A stretch of 64,000 nt of DNA from Shigella phage JK42. The position numbers were made by a program, and so were the translations under genes. The stretch's first letter is position 1, and every line of letters starts with the position of its first letter. Of the stretch, positions 3,665-56,861 are shown in pieces. Below the pieces are notes generated by a model that saw nothing but the letters and a program-made list of their open reading frames with translations, was not told where the DNA came from and did not search any database. Location of the stretch: sequence record MK962756. One strand, given 5' to 3'.

Positions 3665-5480
3665 AGGACATCCATTCTTTACGAAGTTCTGAATCATCAC
3701 CCATCAACATTTCAAAGAGTTCTTTCCAATTTTCAGGAAGTTTAACTACGTCGTACACAGGGTTCTGAATCATTTCACGATATTCTGACTTTTCAAGGGA
3801 GCCTAATCCCTTGATGTATCTAATACTATGCTTAGGCAGTGTATCTTTAACTTCTTCATACTCAGCTACAGTATAAAACCATTTTTGAGTTTTGCCAATT
3901 TGTGCAATAATTACAGGTGTTTTAACAAAGCGAATACGTCCTTGTTCAAACAATTCAGGCCAATTACTAAAGAAAGCAAGCAAAGCCGGATAAATACTTC
4001 CAAGGCCGTCATGATCGGCATCGGTCATAATTGCAATATTACGGTAGTTCGTATTCTCTGCCTTTTCACCAAGAATAAGACCTGTGATAGCACAGATATC
4101 AAAGAGCTCTTTGTTCTTCATCATATCAGCATATGACATACCCCAGCTATTCATCACCTTACCACGTAATGGGAATCCACCGTGTAGTTCACGGTCACGA
4201 ACATCAATGAGATAACCAATTGCAGAATCACCTTCTGTTAAGAACAATGTCGTATCTGCATCTTTACCACATTGGTTAGCTTTAATATGCTTATGAACCT
4301 TAGCTTTAGTTGCCTTTTTAGCTGCTTTAGTTTCTGCAGCCTTTTCTGCCGCCAATTTACGAGCTAATGCTGCTTCAACAATAGGCATAATCAAGGCTTC
4401 GTTTTTAAGAAGTGCCTGAGCAATTTTCTTAGCATCTAATTGGATATGATTACGAATATCACCATACGTTGACGTTAAACGTTCTTTAGTCTGAGAATCA
4501 AAACGCATGTTGCTCATGTCTCTAATAAACATCAACATTGTGAGACATTCTTTAACACGAGCTTTAGTGACTTCAATACCCTTATATTTCTTTTTAATAC
4601 CGGGCAAAAGATGTTCGCAGATATCATCCATTACACATTCAACATGATGACCACCATTTTTAGTATGGATGTTATTCACATAAGTTAAATGACGGAAGCC
4701 ATCTGGTGATGTTGTGAATGCTATAGAGACTTTATCATTTTCTTGAATGATGTTATCTTCACCAAATTGTTTAGCAAATCGTTTAAAATTACCATCAACC
4801 TTTTTACCATTAAATGTGAACTTGATATCAGGATAAACGACTGCCAATGTTTGAAGTCTGTCTAAAGTAATATCTAAATAAATTTGAGATAAATTATGCT
4901 CTTCAAATGAAGAGAAATCAGGAGTGAAGATTACTTTAGTGCCTTTACATTTAGATTTCTTAGAAGACCATGATTTGTTTTCCATTCCGTTTGAACAGTT
5001 AACAGTGATTTCATTTTCGCCATCTGACGTGATGCCTGTAAACAACGTAGAGAAGATATTAGTTAAACTACTCCCGACGCCGTTCATACCACCAGTCTTG
5101 CGTTCAGAATCATCACCAAAGTTACCACCAGCCTTTGGAATAGTCCAGGCTGCTACAGGCCCAGGAATTTGTTCACCTGTTTGGTCGGTAACTAAACCTT
5201 GAGGAATACCACGTCCGTTATCTTCCACCGAAACTTGATTATTTTTAATTTGCACATCAATTTTATTTGCAAACTTAAATGATGTACGAATAGATTCATC
5301 AACCGAGTTGTCAATAATCTCATCGATTAATTTAACCAGACCAGGAACATATTCAACTTGTTGATATTTACCAAACAAAAAACGCTCATGTGCTTCTTTA
5401 GCAGAAGAACCAATATACATACCACTACGTTTCTTAATATGTTCTACATCTGACAATACCTTAATTTCATTTTTAATCAT
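3663..5480 (-). CDS. 39: DNA topoisomerase II large (ATPase, GyrB-like) subunit, fused 39/60 form
   Basis: 605 aa, GyrB-like sequence (…KKRSGMYIGSS…); the length fits the unsplit form of gp39 and no gene-60 bypass element is present. Confidence 0.9.
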   Translation of the reverse strand: MIKNEIKVLSDVEHIKKRSGMYIGSSAKEAHERFLFGKYQQVEYVPGLVKLIDEIIDNSVDESIRTSFKFANKIDVQIKNNQVSVEDNGRGIPQGLVTDQTGEQIPGPVAAWTIPKAGGNFGDDSERKTGGMNGVGSSLTNIFSTLFTGITSDGENEITVNCSNGMENKSWSSKKSKCKGTKVIFTPDFSSFEEHNLSQIYLDITLDRLQTLAVVYPDIKFTFNGKKVDGNFKRFAKQFGEDNIIQENDKVSIAFTTSPDGFRHLTYVNNIHTKNGGHHVECVMDDICEHLLPGIKKKYKGIEVTKARVKECLTMLMFIRDMSNMRFDSQTKERLTSTYGDIRNHIQLDAKKIAQALLKNEALIMPIVEAALARKLAAEKAAETKAAKKATKAKVHKHIKANQCGKDADTTLFLTEGDSAIGYLIDVRDRELHGGFPLRGKVMNSWGMSYADMMKNKELFDICAITGLILGEKAENTNYRNIAIMTDADHDGLGSIYPALLAFFSNWPELFEQGRIRFVKTPVIIAQIGKTQKWFYTVAEYEEVKDTLPKHSIRYIKGLGSLEKSEYREMIQNPVYDVVKLPENWKELFEMLMGDDSELRKEWMS

Positions 5481-5529
5481 GTTGTCTCCTCGTTATGAAG
5501 GTATTCTATCATCCGAAATCTAAAGCAAA

Positions 5530-5545
5530 AAGGGCCGAAGCCCTT
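5530..5545 (-). terminator. hairpin AAGGGC-CGAA-GCCCTT plus U tract
   Basis: 6-bp stem with 4-nt loop overlapping the stop of the 140-aa ORF; minus strand continues UUUUGCUUU. Confidence 0.5.
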
Positions 5546-5966
5546 ATTTAAATTTAATTTTCTGAAGTGCATCAATTGCAGCCAAACGCCCTTGTTCACT
5601 TTTAACTGTAATGACCACATCACCTGATACGATCACCGAACCATCAACAAATTCTATAGAGCCTTTTTTGAAATCTACGGCTGTATCTGATTCAGGAACT
5701 TCTTCAAAGAATTTAAATTCTGCACCGTAAATTAGAATATCACCTTGCATACTAATGATTGTACGTCCAGGTCCATCGGTTTCAGCGGCAATCATTGAAA
5801 CACCGTAACCAATCATCTCTTCCACAATAAAATCTTTGGACAATAAAGTAGTATGCAGATTAGTATTAAGACGTTTACCAGTCGTATTAAGAATTCTCAA
5901 GAAATTATCTTCCTGTCCTTTGATAATACGATATTTCTTACCAACTTCAAAACCTTTAAAAGACAT
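5544..5966 (-). CDS. hypothetical protein
   Basis: 140-aa ORF between terminator hairpin and coupled small ORF; no recognised motif. Confidence 0.5.
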   Translation of the reverse strand: MSFKGFEVGKKYRIIKGQEDNFLRILNTTGKRLNTNLHTTLLSKDFIVEEMIGYGVSMIAAETDGPGRTIISMQGDILIYGAEFKFFEEVPESDTAVDFKKGSIEFVDGSVIVSGDVVITVKSEQGRLAAIDALQKIKFK

Positions 5967-5968
5967 AA

Positions 5969-6148
5969 TTAACCCTTCTTAAGTAAGTCGTAAAAACCAC
6001 CGTTCACATGTTTAGGAGCAGAAACCCGACGAGTAGACAGACGATGACATTCAGGGCAAACATCGTTTTCTCGTTCAGAAATTCTTTTAATTTTTTCATA
6101 TTCATGACCACAATCTTCAGATTGACATTTATAGTCGTATAACGGCAT
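5969..6148 (-). CDS. small zinc-ribbon protein (FmdB-like CxxC...CxxC)
   Basis: Hand translation: [59 protein letters not shown]; start overlaps upstream stop (TAATG), stop abuts next ATG; below the ORF-track length cutoff. Confidence 0.5.
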   Translation of the reverse strand: MPLYDYKCQSEDCGHEYEKIKRISERENDVCPECHRLSTRRVSAPKHVNGGFYDLLKKG

Positions 6149-6579
6149 TATTGTTCCTTAAAATGTGCTTTCAACATTTGATATAAAGACCATGCCTGGT
6201 CGTTATTTTCGATAGTAATCTTCATCACAGGAAATTCAGACAATTCATCAAGTTCACCAGAATCTTGCTCTTCGGACGCTTGATATGGATTTCCAACTTC
6301 GTCAAAGAATTCTGCTTCATTCGTGGAGAGCCAGATAAAGTTTTCATCAAGGATATCACCACCTGTTGCGTATCCAACCATGCCGGTAGATGTCACAATT
6401 TTAGTAGGACGACCAAGATGGTCAACATCTAATACTTTAAATGGTTCCATGCCAAGACGTCGTGCATAAATCCCATTATCAGTGTGGTCTTTAATAAACT
6501 CTTCTTGGGCACGTTTATCTTTAAATTGGTACCATGAGTTAACGCGGAATTTATTAGCCATTAGTAAGTTTCCTTCCAA
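6148..6579 (-). CDS. hypothetical protein
   Basis: 143-aa ORF, acidic C-terminal half. Confidence 0.5.
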
Positions 6580-7390: not shown

Positions 7391-7426
7391 ATGGTTATAA
7401 TATCAAAACCAGAGGAGAAGTAAACT
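7391..7426 (-). promoter_or_regulatory. sigma70-type early promoter (GTTTAC -35; A/T -10)
   Basis: Plus strand shows ttataatatc ... gtaaac; minus strand reads GTTTAC, ~16-17 nt, TATTATAA; sits in the intergenic gap. Confidence 0.4.
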
Positions 7427-7429
7427 ACT

Positions 7430-7849
7430 TTATGCAAAAGATGCTTGGCTATATCCTTTGATTTGGAATTCAGGAACTACCATGAACTGTCCGGCGAAAA
7501 CGATGTTATAAAGCTTAACACCATCTTCAACCCATTGGTCTGAAATAAAACCAGCGACTTGATTCGTTGTCCATGGAGACCCATCAGTTGCGGCAGCAAT
7601 AGTAAATTCATGATCTTTTACAACTAAAACTGACCTGCACAGTTTCCATTTGAATGCTTTTTCTTCTGGTTCAATGAACTGACTTGAGACGTAACCAATG
7701 TTACCATTAACATCTCGAACTTTAACTTCGTTACGTCCAAAAACCGGATCACTCACAGAAAGAACTTCAACCAACTTCCCGGCAACTTTAGAGCGAGAAG
7801 CAACAGATACATATACGTAATCACCTGTAGAGAGATTTACAATATTCAT
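7430..7849 (-). CDS. hypothetical protein, tandem paralog A
   Basis: 139 aa; shares ASRSKxAGKLVEV, FKWxLC and GFISDQWVEDGxKLYNIVF with the adjacent ORF. Confidence 0.55.
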   Translation of the reverse strand: MNIVNLSTGDYVYVSVASRSKVAGKLVEVLSVSDPVFGRNEVKVRDVNGNIGYVSSQFIEPEEKAFKWKLCRSVLVVKDHEFTIAAATDGSPWTTNQVAGFISDQWVEDGVKLYNIVFAGQFMVVPEFQIKGYSQASFA

Positions 7850-7858
7850 AATAATTCC

Positions 7859-8320
7859 TTAAGCTTTACGAGGAGACACATAGCGAGTGATTTCAGATTC
7901 TTTAACAACTCGGAAGTCACCTAAGAATACGATATTGTATAACTTTTCACCATCTTCAACCCATTGGTCGCTAATGAAGCCACACATAGTATCAGTTTTG
8001 CTTGAACCGTATTCATCGATGAAGTCAAATTCTTTATCAGTCTGGAATTCAACACCTTTACACAAGGCCCATTTGAACTGTGTAGTAGGCTCAACGATAT
8101 CGCTTGAAGCAAAGTGGGCACTTACACGAGTTTCCAAGAATTTAGGACTTACATAGGCGAACTGAGTTTCAGTTTTTCCAGAACTAGGAATGATTCGAAC
8201 TTTAACTTCTTTAATACGGCCCATGCCATTAGTACGAAGTCCTACTACTTCAACCAGCTTTCCTGCAGCTTTAGAACGAGACGCTGTCGATACACGCTTA
8301 ATTTCACCAATATTAATCAT
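7859..8320 (-). CDS. hypothetical protein, tandem paralog B
   Basis: 153 aa; paralog of 7430..7849 (same conserved blocks). Confidence 0.55.
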   Translation of the reverse strand: MINIGEIKRVSTASRSKAAGKLVEVVGLRTNGMGRIKEVKVRIIPSSGKTETQFAYVSPKFLETRVSAHFASSDIVEPTTQFKWALCKGVEFQTDKEFDFIDEYGSSKTDTMCGFISDQWVEDGEKLYNIVFLGDFRVVKESEITRYVSPRKA

Positions 8321-8351
8321 ATTTTTTTCTCTCTTTGTTTAAGTTGAATTC

Positions 8352-8380
8352 ATTATACTCCATCCATCCTTGGTTGTAAA
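8352..8380 (-). promoter_or_regulatory. early promoter TTTACA-N17-TATAAT, copy 1 of a repeated 31-bp element
   Basis: Plus strand cattatactccatccatccttggttgtaaac; minus strand gives -35 TTTACA, 17-nt spacer, -10 TATAAT. Confidence 0.5.
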
Positions 8381-9073: not shown

Positions 9074-10387
9074 TCAAATAAAATGGACGTCAAAACGACC
9101 ACGAGTTGTGCCGACATACAATAACTGTTTAGCTAATTCTGAATCAGCATAATGGATACACGGTGTATAAACAAAGGCCGTGTCAACAGACATACCCTGG
9201 GCCTTATGGAAGGTTGATACTGGTAGTGCCTTCACCTTAGTGAACATACGTTTAGCATCCCAGAATTCGCTCCATGGAGCTTTACCGCCTTTATTCCAGA
9301 ATTTGTATGTTTCTGCGGTCTTAGCCAAAAACAAATTGAATTTATAAAGCTCTTCTTCAGAAGAAATAACCTTTATATCTTCGCGGATGTATTCTTCATC
9401 ATCCCCATATGTTTCTACTGTAAGATTCCAGTATCGTATCATATATTCGCCTGAAACACCACGTGCTTTAACGAATGTAGACGTTTCTACAGCATCTCGA
9501 ATACGAACGAATTGCCCATTATTGAAAAGCATTTCAGTCATATTTTTGCCATCTAGCTTGTACGTCTTAGTAAACGGCTCTTGTAGAACAATGACTTCGT
9601 CTTTAATAAATGGTTTTTCTGTTTCAAGAAGTTTTCGGCGAATAATTGAATTTAACTTGTCCACCGACTTATTTGTGAATGCCATCATTCGATTTTCGAA
9701 AAGGTCTTCAGGAGTTTTAACGACGTTAAAATAGTTCATCATATACGATTTAAGGTCTGTATATCCGTGAACACCGTGTCCATCAACTACTTTATCGTAA
9801 ATCCATTTGCCATTACGAATATCAGTCGCAACATCAATAATTGGTGCATTGCTACGTTTAACTTCTGTAAGGTTGCATTGCACGAAGTCTTTGTGAGTGA
9901 AGAAAGGACTTAGATATGCAGTTGATTCGCCTGGGTCTACCGGTCGAATCTGGCATCGGTCGCCGATTCCAATTACTGTGCACCATTTAGGGATACTAGC
10001 TAACATTATTTTAAACAGAGAACGGTCGCACATTGACGCTTCATCAAATAACAGTACACGACACAAGGCTAAGTCGGGAACCTTTTTCTGTTCAAACAAT
10101 ACGTTTTCTTCGTATGTAGTTGGGTTGATTTTAAGAATGCTATGAATAGTCGATGCTTCTTGACCTGCAAGTTTGCTTAGAACCTTTTTAGCAGCATGTG
10201 TAGGGGCTGCTAAAATAATACCTGATTCTCCGGCAGAAATAAGAGCTTCAACGATGAATCTAGTAAGGGTTGTTTTACCTGTACCAGCAGGCCCATTAAT
10301 AGTTACATGATGTTTCTTTTCTTTAATAGCGTTCATAACAACGTTGAAGGCGTTTTTCTGGCCTTCAGTCAAATCATCAAATGTCAT
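9074..10387 (-). CDS. dda: Dda DNA helicase (SF1B)
   Basis: 437 aa; MTFDDLTEGQKNAFNVVMNAIKEKKHHVTINGPAGTGKTT... matches remembered T4 Dda closely, including Walker A. Confidence 0.92.
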   Translation of the reverse strand: MTFDDLTEGQKNAFNVVMNAIKEKKHHVTINGPAGTGKTTLTRFIVEALISAGESGIILAAPTHAAKKVLSKLAGQEASTIHSILKINPTTYEENVLFEQKKVPDLALCRVLLFDEASMCDRSLFKIMLASIPKWCTVIGIGDRCQIRPVDPGESTAYLSPFFTHKDFVQCNLTEVKRSNAPIIDVATDIRNGKWIYDKVVDGHGVHGYTDLKSYMMNYFNVVKTPEDLFENRMMAFTNKSVDKLNSIIRRKLLETEKPFIKDEVIVLQEPFTKTYKLDGKNMTEMLFNNGQFVRIRDAVETSTFVKARGVSGEYMIRYWNLTVETYGDDEEYIREDIKVISSEEELYKFNLFLAKTAETYKFWNKGGKAPWSEFWDAKRMFTKVKALPVSTFHKAQGMSVDTAFVYTPCIHYADSELAKQLLYVGTTRGRFDVHFI

Positions 10388-49405: not shown

Positions 49406-49665
49406 TTAAAATATTCTCGTAGTTGGTCAAATCCACCAATGTGACTTCCGTCAGGAGCAAACACCTGAGGCATAGTCAATCCAACTTGTGATTCACGTCC
49501 AAGCTTAACCAGAAGCTCAGTAATTTTCTCATCATCGAACACACCTTTTTCCGGCATAACATTAATGAATTCGAATGGTTGTTTCTTAACAGTCAGCAAT
49601 CGTTTCGCATTATCACAATAAATGCATTTATGAATAGTAGAGTCATACCCGTACACTTTAAACAT
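49402..49665 (-). CDS. nrdC: thioredoxin/glutaredoxin
   Basis: MFKVYGYDSTIHKCIYCDNAKRLLTVKKQPFEFINVMPEKGVFDDEKI... matches remembered T4 NrdC; start at the second ATG. Confidence 0.85.
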   Translation of the reverse strand: MFKVYGYDSTIHKCIYCDNAKRLLTVKKQPFEFINVMPEKGVFDDEKITELLVKLGRESQVGLTMPQVFAPDGSHIGGFDQLREYFK

Positions 49666-50071
49666 TATTTTTCCTTTCATCGATTAAATATGCAATGCCA
49701 AATACAATACATGTAATAAAACCTGTGATACAGATAGAAACCAACAATACTGTACCAAAGAACCAAATCAAGTTATCTTTGGTAGTTTGTTTGATATCCA
49801 TCTCACGAATTTCTATAGCTATCGTATCACCTTTATTCAGAAGAGTATAAAACGACGGTGATACACGCCTGTCAAAAACTCGTCCTTGCTCATCTTTATA
49901 GACTGCAATAAATTCTAATTTAGAATATTTTCCTGTAGATTGACCTGAGATTAATTCCACTACCTCCACAGGAATTACTTTAGTTTCCATGTAAGTATTC
50001 TGGCTGTTCCAAATGAATGGAATAATAGCAAAAACTAAAGCTGTGATAAAACAACGAAGGCTATATCTCAT
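49658..50071 (-). CDS. membrane protein (two TM segments)
   Basis: 137 aa; N- and C-terminal hydrophobic helices. Confidence 0.45.
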   Translation of the reverse strand: MRYSLRCFITALVFAIIPFIWNSQNTYMETKVIPVEVVELISGQSTGKYSKLEFIAVYKDEQGRVFDRRVSPSFYTLLNKGDTIAIEIREMDIKQTTKDNLIWFFGTVLLVSICITGFITCIVFGIAYLIDERKNNV

Positions 50072-50376
50072 TATAATGTTCTCTCAAATTTGTGGAAGCA
50101 TTTACGGCATTTCAATTTCAAGTTATCACTGGTCCAGTTAACCAGTTGGACTTGGATAGTTCCACATTCCGGGCATGGATGTTTTGCTGCCGATTTGGCA
50201 GCATTTTCACGTCGTTCAACCATTTTCATTATTTCGTTCCATGCTGGAGGAACAAACTCTTCTTCACCGTGGATTTTATCTCGCTGAACAAATTCAATCT
50301 TTGAACTATCATCAATAAACTTAACCAAGCCATGATTAGTGCTCATATCAATATCCTCTAAAAGACGTAGTTTCAT
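50071..50376 (-). CDS. zinc-ribbon protein
   Basis: 101 aa; C-terminal CPECG...CRKC. Confidence 0.45.
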   Translation of the reverse strand: MKLRLLEDIDMSTNHGLVKFIDDSSKIEFVQRDKIHGEEEFVPPAWNEIMKMVERRENAAKSAAKHPCPECGTIQVQLVNWTSDNLKLKCRKCFHKFERTL

Positions 50377-51326
50377 TATAACACCTCAATGGCATTTCGT
50401 AAACCATCCGCTTTCGCATTCAGAGCTTTTAACGATTTAGTTTGTTCTGCAATCTGGGCTTCGACTTCTTTCAGACGAGATTTGAGATATTCGCGTTCTT
50501 CTCTTAAGTTATCAACTTTTTCTGCTTTAGGCTCTTTAATAGGCTTAGGCTTATACTCGTTAGGGTTCTTCAACTTAATTTGAATGCGAGAACTGTATAA
50601 CATTGAACCATTATCTTCGGTTTCATCATACATTTCTACCACGTCCATGATTCTTAACATCATGCGAAGTTTATAAGACAGCGAACGAATGGTTTTATTG
50701 TGCTTCTTAATTTCTTCAGCTTTCATGGTGCCGAGATTACGTGAGTAATAATAAGGAACCTGAATATCAATTGATAATGATGCGGTACCATTACCGGTTG
50801 GTTTGAACACTGCAGTAACCCAATCTTTAGCATGAACTGTATTTGTACGATCATCGCCGCCTGTGAATAATTTACGAGAATGTTTAAAAAGCATATTCAC
50901 TTGGTTATTGAATTCACAAGCAAATTTATCAGCAAATTTAGTTTCAGGAATGGTAGTTAACCAATCAGCCAAATGAGTCTTTTTAACATCATTAACAATA
51001 GTGAATTCAACCAAATCGGTTTTAGATGTCACAGATTTAATAAAGCTCGGCTTCATAAAGTTTTTAATGTTATCGCGAGCTACAGTAGAAGATAATAAAC
51101 GAGAACGTTTGAACCATTGAAGCAGTGTCCCTAATGAATGAGAATATGCATTTTGAGTATCTTTACAGATATGATTTTCTTGGCCTATGTATGTACCAAA
51201 ATCTCGAAGAATACCACTTACTACATCTCGGTGTGGAACATCAAATCCTAGTACACCAGAAGCACGTTGGGCATGAACGTTAGCGATAAGGCCTGCAAAG
51301 TATTCAATGTAATGTGAACGTGTCAT
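50376..51326 (-). CDS. hypothetical protein with C-terminal coiled coil
   Basis: 316 aa; C-terminus ...REEREYLKSRLKEVEAQIAEQTKSLKALNAKADGLRNAIEVL; driven by repeated promoter copy 2. Confidence 0.5.
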   Translation of the reverse strand: MTRSHYIEYFAGLIANVHAQRASGVLGFDVPHRDVVSGILRDFGTYIGQENHICKDTQNAYSHSLGTLLQWFKRSRLLSSTVARDNIKNFMKPSFIKSVTSKTDLVEFTIVNDVKKTHLADWLTTIPETKFADKFACEFNNQVNMLFKHSRKLFTGGDDRTNTVHAKDWVTAVFKPTGNGTASLSIDIQVPYYYSRNLGTMKAEEIKKHNKTIRSLSYKLRMMLRIMDVVEMYDETEDNGSMLYSSRIQIKLKNPNEYKPKPIKEPKAEKVDNLREEREYLKSRLKEVEAQIAEQTKSLKALNAKADGLRNAIEVL

Positions 51327-51355
51327 AATATTTTCCTCTCGTTAAGATAAATTCA

Positions 51356-51384
51356 TTATACTCCAACCATCCTTGGTTGTAAAC
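51356..51384 (-). promoter_or_regulatory. early promoter TTTACA-N17-TATAAT, copy 2 of the repeated element
   Basis: Plus strand attatactccaaccatccttggttgtaaa; spacer contains the inverted repeat CAACCA-TCCT-TGGTTG. Confidence 0.5.
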
Positions 51385-51388
51385 TGAT

Positions 51389-52348
51389 TTATGATTTTAA
51401 CGCATTCATTGCGTTAAAAAGTTTAGAATACTGCAACTGGAGATTCGTTACAACACTTTGAGCATCACGAAGCTTAGCTTGTGCTTTGTCAAGTTCAACA
51501 GACAGTTGGTCCATAGTGGCCTTGATTTGATTGTAATGGTAATCTTCGACCGGAAGAAGGTCATTAGAAACATTTAGTTTTACTGCAGACAGTTTGCACA
51601 CATTTGGCAAACCTTTAAACATTGATTTACCCGAAGTAGAATAAGCACTTAGGACTTCGGCCTGTTCAATTGGGGTCCCAGTAAGCGATGCTTCAAACAA
51701 TGCATTTTCCTTTTTAAGATTTTGATAGTATTCAGAGTCTTTGTGCCACCACGGCGCAGGAACCTTTTTACCAATAGATACACGAGCCTGGATAGCGATA
51801 TTGCCCTTATTCTTGATAGGGTCGATAATATTAAGCTCACGAGAATAAATTGCTTTAATCTGGTGAATATTATCACCTAAAACTTCCAACGCTTGGTGGA
51901 ATACACGAGCAACGTTATCATTCTTAGGTTTATACGTGAGAGTGAACTCGTTCTCACTGATAACCATGATTTCCAACTTATCGTAAGTATATTTCAAATG
52001 TTTCATGTTAATTGCTTGAGGACGAATACGAGAAGCAATGGCCATCAGATTGTTAAGGTTATTCCGGAACTGCTTAGCGAAATATTGTCCTTCACCGCCA
52101 ATACAAAAATTACGAAGTTTCTGTTTGGCCAATAAACGGCTGAACTCGCCATTTTTAATGAACTCTTTAACGGGTGTGTTAGTAACGCATTCAAATTGAG
52201 TAAACTTACGAGAAGTAATCCCATAATATGAACAGATTTCCTCAATCTCTTCAGGAGTCTTTACAGGCATACGGATAGGATTAGGTCCTGGAGTATATGC
52301 GTTCGAGGTAAATTCTTTGATAAGTTCTCTACGTGTAATAAAAGCCAT
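51389..52348 (-). CDS. hypothetical protein with C-terminal coiled coil
   Basis: 319 aa; C-terminus ...LSVELDKAQAKLRDAQSVVTNLQLQYSKLFNAMNALKS; driven by repeated promoter copy 3. Confidence 0.5.
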   Translation of the reverse strand: MAFITRRELIKEFTSNAYTPGPNPIRMPVKTPEEIEEICSYYGITSRKFTQFECVTNTPVKEFIKNGEFSRLLAKQKLRNFCIGGEGQYFAKQFRNNLNNLMAIASRIRPQAINMKHLKYTYDKLEIMVISENEFTLTYKPKNDNVARVFHQALEVLGDNIHQIKAIYSRELNIIDPIKNKGNIAIQARVSIGKKVPAPWWHKDSEYYQNLKKENALFEASLTGTPIEQAEVLSAYSTSGKSMFKGLPNVCKLSAVKLNVSNDLLPVEDYHYNQIKATMDQLSVELDKAQAKLRDAQSVVTNLQLQYSKLFNAMNALKS

Positions 52349-52374
52349 TTTATATTCCTCATGTTGAAAAATTT

Positions 52375-52403
52375 ATTATACTCCAACCATCCTTGGTTGT
52401 ACA
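52375..52403 (-). promoter_or_regulatory. early promoter TGTACA-N17-TATAAT, copy 3 of the repeated element
   Basis: Plus strand attatactccaaccatccttggttgtaca; identical spacer palindrome. Confidence 0.45.
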
Positions 52404-53399
52404 TCATTCCTTAAGAAGTTTTACTACCTGAATAAGATTAGCTCGTTCTGTTTTATTTTTACCATTTAAGCCTGCTAATCGTGAGATTTCATCGTCAGTC
52501 TGTTGAATAGTTACATTAAGTTCGTTAATCAAAGCTTCAAAGTATTTGATTTGCTCAGCATGTTTTGATTCAAATTTCTGAACCGGAATAACGTCTTGGT
52601 TCAGTTCATCAATAAGGTCTTTAAGAGCATCTTCTTGGTTGATATCATATTCAACTTCTTTTATTTCTTCAACGAGCTCGTCTTTATATCTAACGTCTTT
52701 TAGTCCTGGAGCTGGTCCTGAAATCTCTTCTTTAAGAGTACAAACATACCCAATACGGTATCCAACGCCGTCTCGCTTGATATCAACTTCGTCGATAAAT
52801 CCACAATGTTTAAGTCCAGAGCCGATTATGTCAAAATATCCTTGACGTCGTCCTTCAAACGTTACACGAACTACTAAGACGGTTTTGCCACCGACCTTTT
52901 GAAGCTCACATTTATAAAAGTTTGTTGAACCTGAATAACATGGATGAGTTTTAAAGTTCATCTGACGATCTAGGCCCATTTGTAAACGTGCTGTTACGGC
53001 CATAAAACGTGTTTGGTTCTCGTTAAGATGAGCAACAATCCATTTCAAAGGCATTTTACCCTGTTCACGGCCGAACAAATCAGTACGTCCTAGATTACGC
53101 AGGATGTTGTTAGAGTTAATCATCGACAGAACGTTAAGTTTATTCAGCGCGCTGAAGATTCCATCAGCCATTGATTTTCCATAACCTTTACACGCTTTAA
53201 TAAGTGCTCGCGGCAGATTAGTATAGATTTCAGACGGCATATGAAAATCAAATTTACTAGTCAGTAATTGATGAACTTGGATAGCAATTTGCTCATAATT
53301 AAGTGCTCTGCGATCGTTATGGTCTTTAAACCATACTTTAATCTGTGAAGCACATAAACCGTTAATTTCATGTTTTACCGCATCAGATGTAATGCTCAT
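52404..53399 (-). CDS. hypothetical protein with C-terminal coiled coil
   Basis: 331 aa; C-terminal heptad-like region. Confidence 0.5.
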   Translation of the reverse strand: MSITSDAVKHEINGLCASQIKVWFKDHNDRRALNYEQIAIQVHQLLTSKFDFHMPSEIYTNLPRALIKACKGYGKSMADGIFSALNKLNVLSMINSNNILRNLGRTDLFGREQGKMPLKWIVAHLNENQTRFMAVTARLQMGLDRQMNFKTHPCYSGSTNFYKCELQKVGGKTVLVVRVTFEGRRQGYFDIIGSGLKHCGFIDEVDIKRDGVGYRIGYVCTLKEEISGPAPGLKDVRYKDELVEEIKEVEYDINQEDALKDLIDELNQDVIPVQKFESKHAEQIKYFEALINELNVTIQQTDDEISRLAGLNGKNKTERANLIQVVKLLKE

Positions 53400-53461
53400 A
53401 ACTATTTCCTCAGATTGAATTGGAACTCAAAACCATTATAACCCGTCCTTGGGTAAAGCGT

Positions 53462-53989
53462 TTATGCGTGAACCGTCTTTAAACGTTCTTCAAATTTCCG
53501 AAGAGTACTAATACGTTCTGCTTTCTGTTTTGTATAGTTTGCAATACGTTCTGAAGTGAGAGCGTATCGTTCGTTTACTGTTTCTTTCATGAAGTCAGGG
53601 ATTTCACGAGAAGCTTTAATTTCATCAAACTTATCGAGTACTGCCTGGTCTTCAGCAATTAAATTTTCGTACATCTCGATATCTTTCTTGATGAAGTCGA
53701 TATCTTCCTGGGTTACTTTGGATAAACGAGATGCTTTATCCTTTTTGTACTGCTCGTTAGTTTCACGAGACCAGAATAATGTACGTTTTTTGTTAGTGTT
53801 TTTGTAGACTTCCACAATTCCAACTGAATCGATGATAACAATCCAATTCCAGCGAGATTTGAAAATCTGACCTCCGTCCACGGTAATCTCGTTACCATAA
53901 GCAATGTCATTAAAGAACTTACTTTGTGCTTCAGATTTAAATTTACCGTCGTTATAATTTACCAGGTTGAAAATATCTTTAGCGTTCAT
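53462..53989 (-). CDS. hypothetical protein
   Basis: 175-aa ORF; early promoter upstream at ~54011-54045. Confidence 0.5.
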   Translation of the reverse strand: MNAKDIFNLVNYNDGKFKSEAQSKFFNDIAYGNEITVDGGQIFKSRWNWIVIIDSVGIVEVYKNTNKKRTLFWSRETNEQYKKDKASRLSKVTQEDIDFIKKDIEMYENLIAEDQAVLDKFDEIKASREIPDFMKETVNERYALTSERIANYTKQKAERISTLRKFEERLKTVHA

Positions 53990-54472: not shown

Positions 54473-55474
54473 TTATTTCAGTAAAGTTACTTCAGAGATT
54501 TCCTCCCAACCATCTTTATCAGTTGAAATAAAATCTGCTACATAAAGAGCCGTACGTAATGATACATTGCGAAGACGAGATACGTTAGCCTTCATCCAGG
54601 ACAATGCTTTATACGTTTCTGCATCCGTCAGACCACGTTTCTGCATCATGTCAGTAGATAATATTACATCTTCAACTCGAACCATAATCTCTTCATTAGA
54701 GTGTACTCCAAGGTCGAGATACACTGAACGAGATACTAAAGCTTGAAGATGTGGAGCAAGTTTCGAACCCCGTTCTAACTCTTTATCGATATCAACGTTT
54801 GTAATGAAAACGATAGTACCTTCAAACTCAAATTCTTTATCAATACCCTTATCCTCGAGATAAGATGACGCAGTGCTCCAACAAACTTTGCGTTTATCTC
54901 CGGTATCTAATGCTGCTTTAAGAAGGTTCAGGATGTCCATATCTGAGAATACGTCAACGTCATCGATTAAGAGAACGCTGTCTGCATCACGGTTGAGCCA
55001 AAGTTGTTCGTAAAGGCCAATACCAGAGATTTTACCATTAATGCTTTTGTATTTGATGAAACCATTATCATTAGCATTATTAAGTGCTTTATCCAGAGAA
55101 TACGTCTTACCAATACCAGCTGCACCTGAAATAATGAGTGAACGAATTTTGCCATCGATAATACCATTCGTCATCATGTTCATTACTTTAAAGCGTTTGT
55201 TGATACGGGTTTTCATATCTTCAGTGCTTTCAACAACTGCAACTGGTGATGTCTCAACTCCTTCCGTTACGATGTCTGATTTGAAGACCCATACTCCACG
55301 TTCAGAACCATCAATAATAACGAAAATTTTACCATCACCTAAGTGGGAACATTCAGGATTAAGCTTTGCCGGGAACCATGTCTTTGTGGCAACATAAGAA
55401 CCAGAGATTTCGTTATTACGATAGATACCTTTTTTGATTTGAACGTTGAACATTTTATTCTCCAATTTACTCAT
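54473..55474 (-). CDS. P-loop ATPase (AAA-like)
   Basis: 333 aa; Walker A GAAGIGKT, Walker B-like VLLIDDVD. Confidence 0.55.
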   Translation of the reverse strand: MSKLENKMFNVQIKKGIYRNNEISGSYVATKTWFPAKLNPECSHLGDGKIFVIIDGSERGVWVFKSDIVTEGVETSPVAVVESTEDMKTRINKRFKVMNMMTNGIIDGKIRSLIISGAAGIGKTYSLDKALNNANDNGFIKYKSINGKISGIGLYEQLWLNRDADSVLLIDDVDVFSDMDILNLLKAALDTGDKRKVCWSTASSYLEDKGIDKEFEFEGTIVFITNVDIDKELERGSKLAPHLQALVSRSVYLDLGVHSNEEIMVRVEDVILSTDMMQKRGLTDAETYKALSWMKANVSRLRNVSLRTALYVADFISTDKDGWEEISEVTLLK

Positions 55475-55573: not shown

Positions 55574-55840
55574 TTACTTATCGCACTTAGCAACATAATT
55601 AGGCATATCACAGAATACGGAGCGAGTAACTATTCGTCCCTTTGACCATGCTTCAGTTGCTTGTCCGGCCGTGCTATTAATATAGCTTGATTTGATATTC
55701 TCAATACCCTGAGAATGTGATGCATTTACCGAACCGTTGGAAGGCCCAGAAGACTGGTTACCACCAGCTCCTGTACCTGTGGTAGCACCAACAGAGAATG
55801 CCATCATTACTGCGAATAAACCAATTACTAATTTTTTCAT
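55574..55840 (-). CDS. secreted small protein (signal peptide)
   Basis: 88 aa; N-terminal MKKLVIGLFAVMMAFSVGA; TATAAATA late motif ~33 nt upstream. Confidence 0.5.
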   Translation of the reverse strand: MKKLVIGLFAVMMAFSVGATTGTGAGGNQSSGPSNGSVNASHSQGIENIKSSYINSTAGQATEAWSKGRIVTRSVFCDMPNYVAKCDK

Positions 55841-55871: not shown

Positions 55872-56861
55872 TTATTTATAGTAAGAATTATGATTTTCGA
55901 GATAGACTTGCTCAAGGAAATCATCCCAGAAACTCATATCTACTTTTTGTTGCATACCGTTCTTAGCGGCTTGTTCTGACGCATGTTCAACTTGGTCAAC
56001 GATATCTTCTAGGAATTCTTGTACAGTTTTAAACGTATGTTTACCAAGCTTAACATCGAGAATAAATGGAGCATCCTGAAGTGGGTAAACCAGGTCGCCG
56101 GTTTTGTAAATTTCCAATAATTGAAGTCCACCACGACATGCATGACTCAATGCTTTCCAGTCAATACCTTCGTTGGCTTCTGCCTTACGAGCACGTTCGC
56201 CATAGTTCTCTTCCAGTTTAACCAGGATGGCATTGAACTCTTTATTGGTTAACGTATCTTGGAATTTACGGTCTAACAGATTATAGAATGTTTGCTTACC
56301 TGTTTTCTCGTTTTCGGTTTCAACCCACGAAGCAAATTCACCTACGGGCAGAACATTCTTCATATGTGATAAACGAATTACTGCACCATTATCAAAGTAT
56401 TGTCCCCATTCATTAGAACGTTTAAGGGCTTGACGAAGAACAGCCAGTCGAGAACCCTTAACACCGTATTTAGAAGCTTGCTTACGGACATACCCTAAAT
56501 AAGATTTCATGTTAGTGGTATAGAAACGAGACCTGTTATCTTGAATATACTTCCATACATCAGGCAAATCAGATTTAACTACTAGACTTTGTGGAGTGTG
56601 AAGCATATCTAATGCGACGGTTTCACCATCCGCAGCTAGTTTAAAGAAATATTTGAGACTATACAACTCATGGTCCACGTCGTCTTTTGTGTTCTTAGAA
56701 GATGTGTTATTCGTGTTCTTGCTCATGTGTTCTTTAACGTTACCGGTCAAGATATCACGAGCATGAGGGACATAAATTTCTTTAAAATCGACATCAGATT
56801 CAGGAGTAGACGTTCCATAAAGGTGGCTACCAAAGTAGCCTTTCATAATTGTTTTCATCAT
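55872..56861 (-). CDS. polymerase-beta-type nucleotidyltransferase-fold protein
   Basis: 329 aa; N-terminal ...GYFGSHLYGTSTPESDVDF... fits the GS-x9-13-DxD minimal NTase motif; helical C-terminal domain. Confidence 0.5.
   Translation of the reverse strand: MMKTIMKGYFGSHLYGTSTPESDVDFKEIYVPHARDILTGNVKEHMSKNTNNTSSKNTKDDVDHELYSLKYFFKLAADGETVALDMLHTPQSLVVKSDLPDVWKYIQDNRSRFYTTNMKSYLGYVRKQASKYGVKGSRLAVLRQALKRSNEWGQYFDNGAVIRLSHMKNVLPVGEFASWVETENEKTGKQTFYNLLDRKFQDTLTNKEFNAILVKLEENYGERARKAEANEGIDWKALSHACRGGLQLLEIYKTGDLVYPLQDAPFILDVKLGKHTFKTVQEFLEDIVDQVEHASEQAAKNGMQQKVDMSFWDDFLEQVYLENHNSYYK
55873..55880 (-). promoter_or_regulatory. late promoter motif TATAAATA
   Basis: Plus-strand tatttata upstream of the secreted-protein gene. 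Confidence 0.4.

What the first reader, a model, noticed from the sequence alone, without database searches (positions are those of the whole stretch)
50376..53399. Three consecutive ~320-aa genes with C-terminal coiled coils and no recognisable domains
ORFs of 316, 319 and 331 aa lie in series; each ends in a heptad-rich, Lys/Glu/Gln/Ala/Leu-dominated C-terminal segment, and two of them are driven by the repeated promoter. They do not resemble T4 proteins I can recall and look like an accessory early-gene block, possibly host-takeover or anti-defence proteins.
Basis: inference. Interest (0 to 1): 0.5.

Follow-up and report, generated by a model that had tools for sequence, protein, structure and literature searches.

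The report
T4 nrdC.3/.5/.6-type accessory gene paralogs
The three genes are this RB69-like phage's versions of T4 genes nrdC.3, nrdC.5 and nrdC.6, fast-evolving related accessory proteins with coiled-coil tails, and the T4 nrdC.5 copy is already known to disarm the bacterial Dsr1 defence, so they are plausible but unproven anti-defence genes rather than something new.

Summary
Three minus-strand ORFs of 316, 319 and 331 aa lie in series. A and B have strong heptad tails and C a weaker, interrupted one. A and B share an identical 27-nt promoter repeat.

The claim that they do not resemble T4 proteins is wrong. The window is a Mosigvirus (99.5% identical to Shigella phage JK45), and the genes sit in the T4 nrdC cluster:
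- A is NrdC.3 (56% identity).
- B is NrdC.5 (Pfam DUF7235; about 25% identity).
- C is NrdC.6 (about 33-37% identity).

Profile comparisons built from 11-14 phages show that NrdC.3, .4 and .5 are paralogs and that NrdC.6 is a probable distant one. Single-copy relatives sit next to nrdC in Klebsiella and probably Enterobacter and Acinetobacter T4-like phages.

These genes diverge far more than their neighbours and are exchanged as alleles. They also recombine with each other, duplicate internally and decay.

T4 nrdC.5 is published as overcoming the Dsr1 SIR2 defence, and the T4 nrdC.1-6 block is deletable. The best reading is a host-range/anti-defence paralog array: a conserved scaffold and coiled-coil tail carrying a variable beta-region. 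The mechanism is inferred only, because the AlphaFold models were poor.

The parts
50376..51326 (-). Gene A, 316 aa: ortholog of T4 NrdC.3 (phrog_1435; homologues tagged PF26897). Basic (pI 9.4), soluble.
   Evidence: ORF. 56% identity and E 4e-122 to T4 NrdC.3. phrog_1435 at 1.3e-105. An HMM built only from NrdC.4-type proteins hits it at 6.7e-13. pI.
50379..50528 (-). Coiled-coil tail of A (residues 267-316), the best conserved block of the protein
   Evidence: Heptad score 0.82, reached by 0 of 200 shuffles. Helix 275-315 in the AF2 model. 72% identity to T4 NrdC.3 over residues 281-316, against 56% overall.
51355..51383 (-). Early-type sigma-70 promoter upstream of A (TTTACA-17-TATAAT). 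It holds the 27-nt repeat, with a small hairpin CAACCA/TGGTTG in the spacer.
51389..52348 (-). Gene B, 319 aa: divergent member of the NrdC.5 family (Pfam DUF7235, phrog_2351). pI 9.3.
   Evidence: ORF. DUF7235 at 2.6e-124, and T4 NrdC.5 matches the same model at 5.3e-126. BLASTP to T4 NrdC.5: 25% identity, E 9e-12. RB69 annotates the homologue as NrdC.5.
51392..51544 (-). Coiled-coil tail of B (residues 269-319)
   Evidence: Heptad score 0.90, reached by 0 of 200 shuffles. Helix 268-318 in the AF2 model. 51% identity to T4 NrdC.5 over residues 281-319, against about 25% overall.
52375..52403 (-). Second copy of the repeated promoter, upstream of B (TGTACA-17-TATAAT)
52404..53399 (-). Gene C, 331 aa: divergent ortholog of T4 NrdC.6 (phrog_2257; homologues tagged PF26899). 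pI 7.6.
   Evidence: ORF. phrog_2257 at 4.4e-127, and T4 NrdC.6 matches the same family at 6.4e-126. 37% identity over 139 aa, E 3e-19, to T4 NrdC.6. Full-length alignment.
52407..52568 (-). C-terminal helical tail of C (about residues 278-331), a weaker and interrupted heptad pattern
   Evidence: Heptad score 0.6, reached by 11 of 200 shuffles. 60% identity to the tail of Sf22 NrdC.6, against about 33% overall.
53435..53460 (-). MotA-box-like middle promoter upstream of C (CGCTTTA-N13-TATAAT), sharing the CCAAGGAYGG core with the A and B promoters
   Evidence: Sequence, motif. The same element precedes nrdC.7 in T4 and the nrdC.7 or nrdC.6 position in the ten other T-even loci. Promoter function is inferred from the T4 middle-promoter consensus, not shown.

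Best explanation
Identity (shown). The three ORFs are the Mosigvirus alleles of T4 nrdC.3 (A), nrdC.5 (B) and nrdC.6 (C). They belong to one fast-evolving, Straboviridae-restricted family of proteins of about 36 kDa. Members share an N-terminal helical region with motifs such as 'LS..A..LrNF' and 'F..N...L..AsRL', a small helix plus beta-sheet core, a disordered linker, and a conserved C-terminal coiled-coil tail of about 50 residues. E. coli T-even phages carry 3-4 copies in a row next to nrdC. Klebsiella and, probably, Enterobacter and Acinetobacter T4-like phages carry one.

Function (inferred). These are dispensable early/middle accessory proteins that set host range by neutralising bacterial immune proteins. 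The conserved helical scaffold and coiled-coil tail would oligomerise the protein. The hypervariable beta-region would be the surface that binds a host target. B would then be a candidate inhibitor of Dsr1-type SIR2 NADases, made before the late proteins that trigger the defence and probably acting by direct binding, like its family member T4 NrdC.5. A and C would be aimed at other, unknown targets. Repeated promoter cassettes and recombination exchange alleles among phages.
For: Identity and synteny.

Paralogy, using local hhalign on family alignments from 11-14 phages:
- NrdC.3 vs NrdC.4: E 6e-11.
- NrdC.4 vs NrdC.5: E 1e-5 locally; collinear over 263 columns in global mode.
- NrdC.3+.4+.5 vs NrdC.6: E 2.4e-4, improving to 4.8e-5 when the Klebsiella member is added and to 1e-7 when the Enterobacter intermediate is also added.
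- All unrelated or cross-family reversed decoys score E >= 0.087.
- An HMM built only from NrdC.4 proteins hits A at 6.7e-13.
- The AF2 models of A and B give the same order of secondary-structure elements.

Arms-race signature:
- Flanking genes are 78-91% identical to T4, but A, B and C are 56%, 25% and 37%.
- Within one species (window vs phage moha) dS is 0.57 for B and 0.43 for C, against 0.02-0.16 in the flanks, which indicates allele replacement.
- In B and C the tail is the best conserved block and the beta-region among the least; in A the tail is second to a helical block.
- Phage Manna carries a natural NrdC.6-N/NrdC.4-C hybrid joined at a 10-nt microhomology.
- Sf22 has an internal duplication, T4 nrdC.6 a frameshift, and T2 apparently split genes.

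Function:
- T4 nrdC.5 expressed from a plasmid restores plating of a deletion mutant on MG1655 carrying dsr1 from ECOR17 (PMC9391042).
- T4 nrdC.1-6 is deletable (PMC9825161).
- A and B have early-type promoters.
Against: - No experiment exists for this phage or for any NrdC.3, NrdC.4 or NrdC.6 protein.
- B is only about 25-28% identical to T4 NrdC.5, and its beta-region is almost unalignable with it (2% identity over residues 161-200). The Dsr1 specificity may therefore not transfer.
- How T4 NrdC.5 acts is unknown; direct binding is an assumption.
- Both AlphaFold2 models are of low confidence (pLDDT 41 and 49), so the shared fold and the 'variable binding surface' are not structurally established.
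- The NrdC.6 link rests partly on one bridging sequence (EnC07), which could bias the profile.
- dN/dS between alleles is 0.15-0.20, which is purifying overall and not clear positive selection.
- A and B are basic (pI 9.3-9.4), which would also fit nucleic-acid binding.
Confidence: 0.6

Rival explanations
1. Host-takeover proteins unrelated to immunity. On this reading they are basic, oligomeric proteins that bind host or phage nucleic acid, or a host enzyme, to redirect metabolism or transcription early in infection. The anti-Dsr1 effect of T4 NrdC.5 would be an indirect consequence, for example altered timing or NAD metabolism.
For: A and B have pI 9.3-9.4. They have early promoters. They lie in a cluster otherwise linked to nucleotide metabolism: NrdC thioredoxin, the NrdC.10 AAA ATPase and the NrdC.11 nucleotidyltransferase. 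The mechanism of NrdC.5 is unpublished.
Against: A core takeover function would be expected to be conserved. Instead these are the most divergent genes of the locus, are swapped as alleles, are frequently truncated, and are deletable without loss of viability. No nucleic-acid-binding domain was detected.
Confidence: 0.22
2. Inter-phage competition or selfish cassette genes. On this reading the genes are 'morons' spread by the promoter cassettes. They would give superinfection exclusion or defence against competing phages, or no benefit at all.
For: They sit in a hyperplastic region with repeated promoter elements similar to those reported to mediate modular shuffling (PMC2839356, PMC4122927). 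The alleles are mosaic.
Against: The genes stay at a fixed syntenic position next to nrdC in at least seven genera. dN/dS of 0.15-0.20 shows selection on the proteins. One member has a demonstrated counter-defence phenotype.
Confidence: 0.1
3. Structural, scaffolding or replication-associated coiled-coil proteins.
For: There are only weak sub-threshold matches of the coiled-coil tails, for example Phage_scaffold at E 0.23 and Mer2 at E 0.014.
Against: All such hits are far below the gathering thresholds and confined to the heptad tail. There is no PDB, NCBIfam or PHROG structural match. The promoters are early or middle, not late. The T4 block is deletable.
Confidence: 0.04

Closest known systems
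T4 NrdC.5 (Pfam DUF7235 / phrog_2351), the gene that overcomes Dsr1 of E. coli ECOR17 (Srikant, Guegler and Laub 2022, PMC9391042)
   Same: B and T4 NrdC.5 both match DUF7235 along their full length (2.6e-124 and 5.3e-126). They hold the same position in the nrdC cluster, have the same size and architecture, and their coiled-coil tails are 51% identical.
   Different: Overall identity is only about 25-28%. The N-terminal 60 residues and the beta-region are essentially unalignable. A phmmer search of 1.84 billion representatives with B did not reach the T4-type branch. Activity against Dsr1 is untested for B.
T4 NrdC.3 and NrdC.4 (phrog_1435) and T4 NrdC.6 (phrog_2257), uncharacterised T4 ORFs
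   Same: A is the NrdC.3 ortholog (56% identity) and C the NrdC.6 ortholog. Gene order and translational coupling to nrdC.2 are the same.
   Different: This phage lacks nrdC.4 and nrdC.1, and it has its nrdC.7 homologue moved next to nrdC. C keeps the full coiled-coil tail, which the T4 reference nrdC.6 has lost through a 1-nt deletion.
DSAD1 of Bacillus SPbeta-type phages, which inhibits DSR2 (PMC10973363, PMC10981675)
   Same: It works in a similar way. It is a phage protein that counters a defence-associated sirtuin NADase; according to those papers, DSAD1 binds the DSR2 sensor region.
   Different: The target (DSR2, not Dsr1) and the phage lineage differ. No sequence comparison was made here. 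The binding mode of NrdC.5 is unknown.
PeSL/PmSL promoter-stem-loop cassettes of T4-like phages (Arbiol 2010, PMC2839356; Comeau 2014, PMC4122927)
   Same: Repeated early (TTTACW-N17-TAYWAT) or Mot-type promoters flank variable ORFs in hyperplastic regions. They could act as recombination points.
   Different: Here the small conserved hairpin lies inside the promoter spacer. It is not a terminator-like stem-loop beside the promoter. Recombination at these sites was not demonstrated.

Membership tests
NrdC.5 family (Pfam DUF7235 / phrog_2351), gene B | Full-length match to the family HMM above the curated threshold | tested here: met
   415 bits against a gathering score of 30, residues 15-318 on profile positions 1-307. 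phrog_2351 at 1.1e-99. T4 NrdC.5 matches the same models.
NrdC.5 family (Pfam DUF7235 / phrog_2351), gene B | Syntenic position between nrdC.6 and nrdC.4/.3 in the nrdC cluster | tested here: met
   RB69 annotates the homologue as nrdC.5.
NrdC.5 family (Pfam DUF7235 / phrog_2351), gene B | Counteracts the Dsr1 SIR2 defence (the only known activity of the family, shown for T4 NrdC.5) | not testable with these tools
   Known only from plating assays in PMC9391042. It needs phage genetics.
NrdC.3/NrdC.4 family (phrog_1435), gene A | Full-length HMM match and orthology to T4 NrdC.3 | tested here: met
   phrog_1435 at 1.3e-105. 56% identity over 316 aa. An NrdC.4-only HMM hits A at 6.7e-13.
NrdC.6 family (phrog_2257), gene C | Full-length HMM match and homology to T4 NrdC.6 | tested here: met
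   phrog_2257 at 4.4e-127. BLASTP E 3e-19. The tail is 60% identical to that of full-length Sf22 NrdC.6.
Proposed NrdC.3-.6 superfamily (all three genes are paralogs) | Significant, collinear profile-profile similarity between the families, above decoy level | tested here: met
   For A and B: F3-F4 E 6e-11; F4-F5 E 1e-5 locally and collinear over 263 columns in global mode; unrelated and cross-family reversed decoys E >= 0.087.
Proposed NrdC.3-.6 superfamily (all three genes are paralogs) | The same similarity for the NrdC.6 branch (gene C) | tested here: inconclusive
   F345 vs F6 gives E 2.4e-4 (probability 44%). With KP182 added it is 4.8e-5 (68%). With the bridging EnC07 sequence it is 1e-7 (94%), but adding that sequence may bias the profile. 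F3-F6 and F4-F6 compared directly are not significant.
Proposed NrdC.3-.6 superfamily (all three genes are paralogs) | Shared three-dimensional fold | tested here: inconclusive
   The AF2 models of A and B have pLDDT 49 and 41. Only the order of secondary-structure elements agrees. The Foldseek results are uninformative.
Coiled-coil proteins | Heptad periodicity of hydrophobic residues over at least 28 residues, beyond chance | tested here: met
   A and B: 0 of 200 shuffles reach the observed score. C is weaker, at 11 of 200. The score is home-made, not COILS or MARCOIL, and the oligomeric state is unknown.
PeSL (promoter-early stem-loop) cassettes | Repeated early promoter combined with an adjacent terminator-like stem-loop, flanking variable ORFs | tested here: inconclusive
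   The repeated promoter flanking variable ORFs is present. The only conserved hairpin lies inside the spacer, and no terminator-like site was found next to these promoters.

The most novel reading that the evidence does not exclude
NrdC.3, .4, .5 and .6 may form a Straboviridae-wide superfamily of modular counter-defence proteins. A conserved helical scaffold and coiled-coil oligomerisation tail would display a rapidly swapped beta-domain. Each paralog would disarm a different bacterial immune sensor, for example members of the TPR-sensor group that includes Dsr1 and Avs7. The tandem array in E. coli T-even phages would then be an expandable anti-immunity arsenal, diversified by recombination between paralogs and at promoter cassettes.
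Probability: 0.3. Interest if true: 0.65.

Novelty: new member of a known kind. Interest (0 to 1): 0.4.

Why it matters
If the reading is right, the locus offers two or three ready candidates for new phage counter-defence proteins (A, C and T4 NrdC.4), alongside a natural allelic series of the one known anti-Dsr1 protein. The conserved tail, the variable beta-region and the natural domain-swap hybrid suggest a simple design for mapping specificity. That would help explain host-range differences among therapeutic T-even phages, and it would help work out how Dsr1-type sirtuin defences are switched off. It does not change any general concept. Accessory, fast-evolving anti-defence genes in T4 hyperplastic regions are already an established theme.

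Tried and rejected
- Direct BLASTP among A, B and C found nothing. hhalign on shallow alignments of close homologues (Neff about 1.5) also found nothing. Paralogy became visible only with alignments built from 11-14 phages.
- My first pairing by gene order (B with T4 NrdC.4, C with T4 NrdC.5) gave no similarity. The correct partners are NrdC.5 and NrdC.6.
- The large protein searches returned only close T-even relatives. phmmer of B against 1.84 billion representatives gave 2 hits.
- The AlphaFold2 models of B and A were of low confidence (pLDDT 41 and 49). Foldseek against BFVD found only the NrdC.3 homologue, and against PDB found nothing meaningful. I left the third fold search unused for that reason.
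- PDB profile searches with all three families found nothing below E 0.2. NCBIfam and PADLOC gave only chance-level hits to the tails. Rfam found nothing in 49-56 kb.
- The single BLAST cluster joining NrdC.3/.4 with NrdC.6 turned out to be caused by one chimeric protein in phage Manna, not by general similarity.
- Aeromonas and Cronobacter loci fetched through NrdC.10 are not syntenic and hold no family member.
- I considered DNA-mimic anti-restriction proteins and rejected the idea, because A and B are basic rather than acidic.
- I considered comparing NrdC.5 with the major capsid protein, to test mimicry of the reported Dsr1 trigger, but did not run it because it seemed too speculative.
Full report
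OBSERVATION

The three ORFs exist exactly as described, on the minus strand: A at 50376-51326 (316 aa), B at 51389-52348 (319 aa) and C at 52404-53399 (331 aa). Each has an ATG start and a purine-rich ribosome-binding site.

A home-made heptad-register score with shuffling controls gives a strong signal for the last 50 or so residues of A and B; 0 of 200 shuffles reach the observed score. C is weaker, with 11 of 200 shuffles reaching it, because its helix is broken at AGLNGKNK. K/E/Q/A/L are enriched in the tails. The AlphaFold2 models, poor as they are, end in a single helix of 40-50 residues.

The repeated promoter is real. An identical 27-mer, TACAACCAAGGATGGTTGGAGTATAAT, lies upstream of A and B, and a third copy lies at 8352-8378. 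Shuffled sequence gives none. Upstream of C there is instead a MotA-box-like element, CGCTTTA-N13-TATAAT, which shares the CCAAGGAYGG core.

WHAT THE GENES ARE

The window is a Mosigvirus (RB69-type T-even phage), 99.5% identical to Shigella phage JK45 and to vB_Eco_mar005P1. The genes lie in the T4 nrdC cluster. Reading in the direction of transcription, the order here is NrdC.11, an 88-aa ORF, NrdC.10, NrdC.9, NrdC.8, C, B, A, NrdC.2, an NrdC.7 homologue, then NrdC.

- A is the NrdC.3 ortholog: 56% identity, E 4e-122.
- B pairs with NrdC.5, not with NrdC.4 as gene order first suggested: 25% identity, E 9e-12. B and T4 NrdC.5 both match Pfam DUF7235 over their full length at about 1e-125. RB69 annotates its copy as NrdC.5.
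- C pairs with NrdC.6: E 3e-19, and both fall in phrog_2257.

PARALOGY

Pairwise BLAST and shallow profiles show nothing. PHROGs already places NrdC.3 and NrdC.4 in one family.

I fetched the locus from ten further T-even genomes of Tequatrovirus, Mosigvirus, Dhakavirus and Gaprivervirus, built family alignments, and compared them with hhalign:
- NrdC.3 vs NrdC.4: E 6e-11.
- NrdC.4 vs NrdC.5: E 1e-5 locally, over the long helix and the beta core. In global mode the alignment is collinear over 263 columns from the shared N-terminal 'TR.EyI..F' to the last residues.
- NrdC.3+.4+.5 vs NrdC.6: E 2.4e-4.
- Unrelated neighbours (NrdC.10, NrdC.11) and cross-family reversed-sequence decoys never beat E 0.087.

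An HMM built from NrdC.4 proteins alone finds A at 6.7e-13, and no further paralog exists in the window.

The two AF2 models have the same order of elements: N-terminal helices, a long helix, three strands, a helix, two strands, a disordered linker and the tail helix.

I conclude that A and B are paralogs, linked through NrdC.4. C is a probable, more distant one (my estimate is about 0.8).

DISTRIBUTION

The exhaustive phmmer search with B found only two cluster representatives among 1.84 billion. The word-indexed searches found only T-even relatives.

I followed the much more widely conserved neighbour NrdC.10 (1311 phage records) into other genera. That gave proteins of the right size, each encoded close to nrdC:
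- Klebsiella Jiaodavirus KP182: 324 aa, hhalign E 5e-8.
- Enterobacter Karamvirus EnC07: 353 aa, E 1.4e-5.
- Acinetobacter Lazarusvirus DLP1: 343 aa, E 8e-5 locally and collinear in global mode.

Adding EnC07 to the NrdC.6 set raises the link to the other families to E 1e-7. A bridging sequence can bias such a profile, so this figure needs caution.

The Aeromonas and Cronobacter loci are not syntenic and lack the family.

The family is therefore Straboviridae-wide, single-copy in several genera and expanded to 3-4 copies in the E. coli T-evens.

EVOLUTIONARY BEHAVIOUR

Between this phage and T4, the flanking proteins are 78-91% identical: NrdC 91%, NrdC.8 83%, NrdC.10 78%. A, B and C are 56%, 25% and 37%.

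Within each protein the C-terminal tail (72%, 51% and 60% identity) and a helical motif block are the best conserved parts: the tail leads in B and C, the helical block (87%) in A. In B and C the beta-region is among the least conserved, down to 2% in one 40-residue block of B.

Against phage moha, which belongs to the same species, synonymous divergence is 0.57 for B and 0.43 for C, compared with 0.02-0.16 in the flanks. dN/dS is 0.15-0.20. This pattern points to allele replacement by recombination under continuing purifying selection.

The locus also shows repeated structural accidents:
- Salmonella phage Manna encodes an in-frame hybrid of the NrdC.6 N-terminal 260-odd residues and the NrdC.4 tail. 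nrdC.5 is deleted, and the junction lies at a 10-nt microhomology inside a shared 'QQ..DEI' motif.
- Sf22 NrdC.6 carries an internal tandem duplication.
- The T4 reference nrdC.6 has a 1-nt deletion, and its intact tail is still readable in another frame.
- T2 annotates split nrdC.4 and nrdC.6 genes.

FUNCTION

Srikant, Guegler and Laub (eLife 2022, PMC9391042) reported a T4 deletion mutant that cannot plate on ECOR17. Deleting the host dsr1 gene rescues it. [quoted passage not shown]

Yuan et al. (NAR 2022, PMC9825161) recovered viable T4 lacking nrdC.1-6. A 2026 preprint reports that the TPR sensor of Dsr1 recognises phage major capsid proteins (PMC12803255). I found no paper on NrdC.3.4 or .6.

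The best-supported reading is therefore that these are host-range or counter-defence accessory genes. I infer, but have not shown, the following:
- The conserved scaffold and coiled-coil tail oligomerise the protein.
- The variable beta-region binds the host target.
- B is a candidate Dsr1-type inhibitor, made early, before the late proteins that trigger the defence.
- A and C have other targets.

Points against this reading: there is no experiment on this phage, B is very divergent from T4 NrdC.5, the mechanism of NrdC.5 is unknown, and A and B are basic (pI 9.3-9.4), which would also fit nucleic-acid binding.

COMPARISON WITH KNOWN FAMILIES, AND NOVELTY

No relative has a solved structure. 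There is no match in NCBIfam or PADLOC. The fold searches were uninformative because the models are poor.

The genes are members of known but uncharacterised families (DUF7235, phrog_1435, phrog_2257), and one T4 member has a known phenotype. The superfamily link, the modular conservation pattern and the natural hybrid appear not to be described in the papers I could search. They are refinements rather than a new kind of system.

I rate this a new member of a known kind, of moderate interest (0.4).

Noticed in passing
window 51365-51376, 52385-52396, 53441-53452, 8362-8373, about 29677 (all minus strand); L001 and L003-L011: A short inverted repeat lies between the -35 element (or MotA box) and the -10 element of the nrdC-cluster promoters. 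Its loop, AAGGA(T/C), is invariant. Its stem co-varies between phages and genes: AACC/GGTT, AGCC/GGCT, CCAC/GTGG, TACC/GGTA, ACCC/GGGT, ATCC/GGAT and TTCC/GGAG. The early-type copies are followed by GGAG (the RegB motif) just before TATAAT. Co-variation suggests a selected structure in DNA or in read-through RNA. Rfam has no match.
   Followed up: partly
L001 (T4 NC_000866) about 9990-10260, minus strand: The T4 reference nrdC.6 carries a 1-nt deletion relative to Sf22 (GAGCTAAATATT becomes GAGCTGATATT). The deletion truncates the protein. The original coiled-coil tail (ISIQQYDDEIFRLSGLSSKAKSEREKLIKIVDLLKS*) is still intact in another frame and ends just before the nrdC.5 ribosome-binding site.
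   Followed up: yes
L004 (Salmonella phage Manna) 5501-6538: A natural in-frame chimera joins the NrdC.6 N-terminal domain to the NrdC.4 linker and tail (96% identical to T4 NrdC.4 over the last 83 aa). nrdC.5 is deleted. The junction lies at the microhomology TGATGAAATT within a 'QQ..DEI' motif shared by the two paralogs.
   Followed up: yes
L010 (Shigella phage Sf22) 4543-5772; L009 (T2) 5378-6268 and 7416-8355: Sf22 NrdC.6 is 409 aa because about 130 residues of the beta-region and the start of the tail are duplicated in tandem. The T2 record annotates nrdC.6 and nrdC.4 as two pieces each, which may be pseudogenes or sequencing errors.
   Followed up: partly
window 49658-50071 (-): This 137-aa predicted membrane protein is a homologue of T4 NrdC.7 (41% identity, E 4e-27). 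It sits between nrdC.2 and nrdC, not between nrdC.8 and nrdC.6 as in T4. nrdC.1 and nrdC.4 have no counterpart here. The MotA-type promoter that precedes nrdC.7 in T4 precedes C directly in this phage.
   Followed up: partly
window 54473-55474 (-) and 55872-56861 (-): The NrdC.10-like P-loop/AAA protein has only weak matches to AAA_22, nSTAND and clamp-loader families. It is far more widely conserved than A-C: 1311 phage records, including Klebsiella, Acinetobacter, Aeromonas and Vibrio phages and jumbo phages. The NrdC.11-like ORF next to it corresponds to the T4 gene annotated as a nucleotidyltransferase.
   Followed up: no
window 55574-55840 (-): An 88-aa ORF with an N-terminal signal-peptide-like segment (MKKLVIGLFAVMMAFSVGA...) lies between the NrdC.11 and NrdC.10 homologues. 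T4 has only a short gap of about 114 nt at that place.
   Followed up: no
window 53462-53989 (-): The NrdC.8 homologue (175 aa) is 83% identical to T4 NrdC.8. A 2026 paper on DRT1 lists T4 nrdC.8 among the genes down-regulated in DRT1-expressing cells and treats it as a nucleotide reductase, which its sequence does not obviously support; Pfam shows no reductase domain.
   Followed up: no
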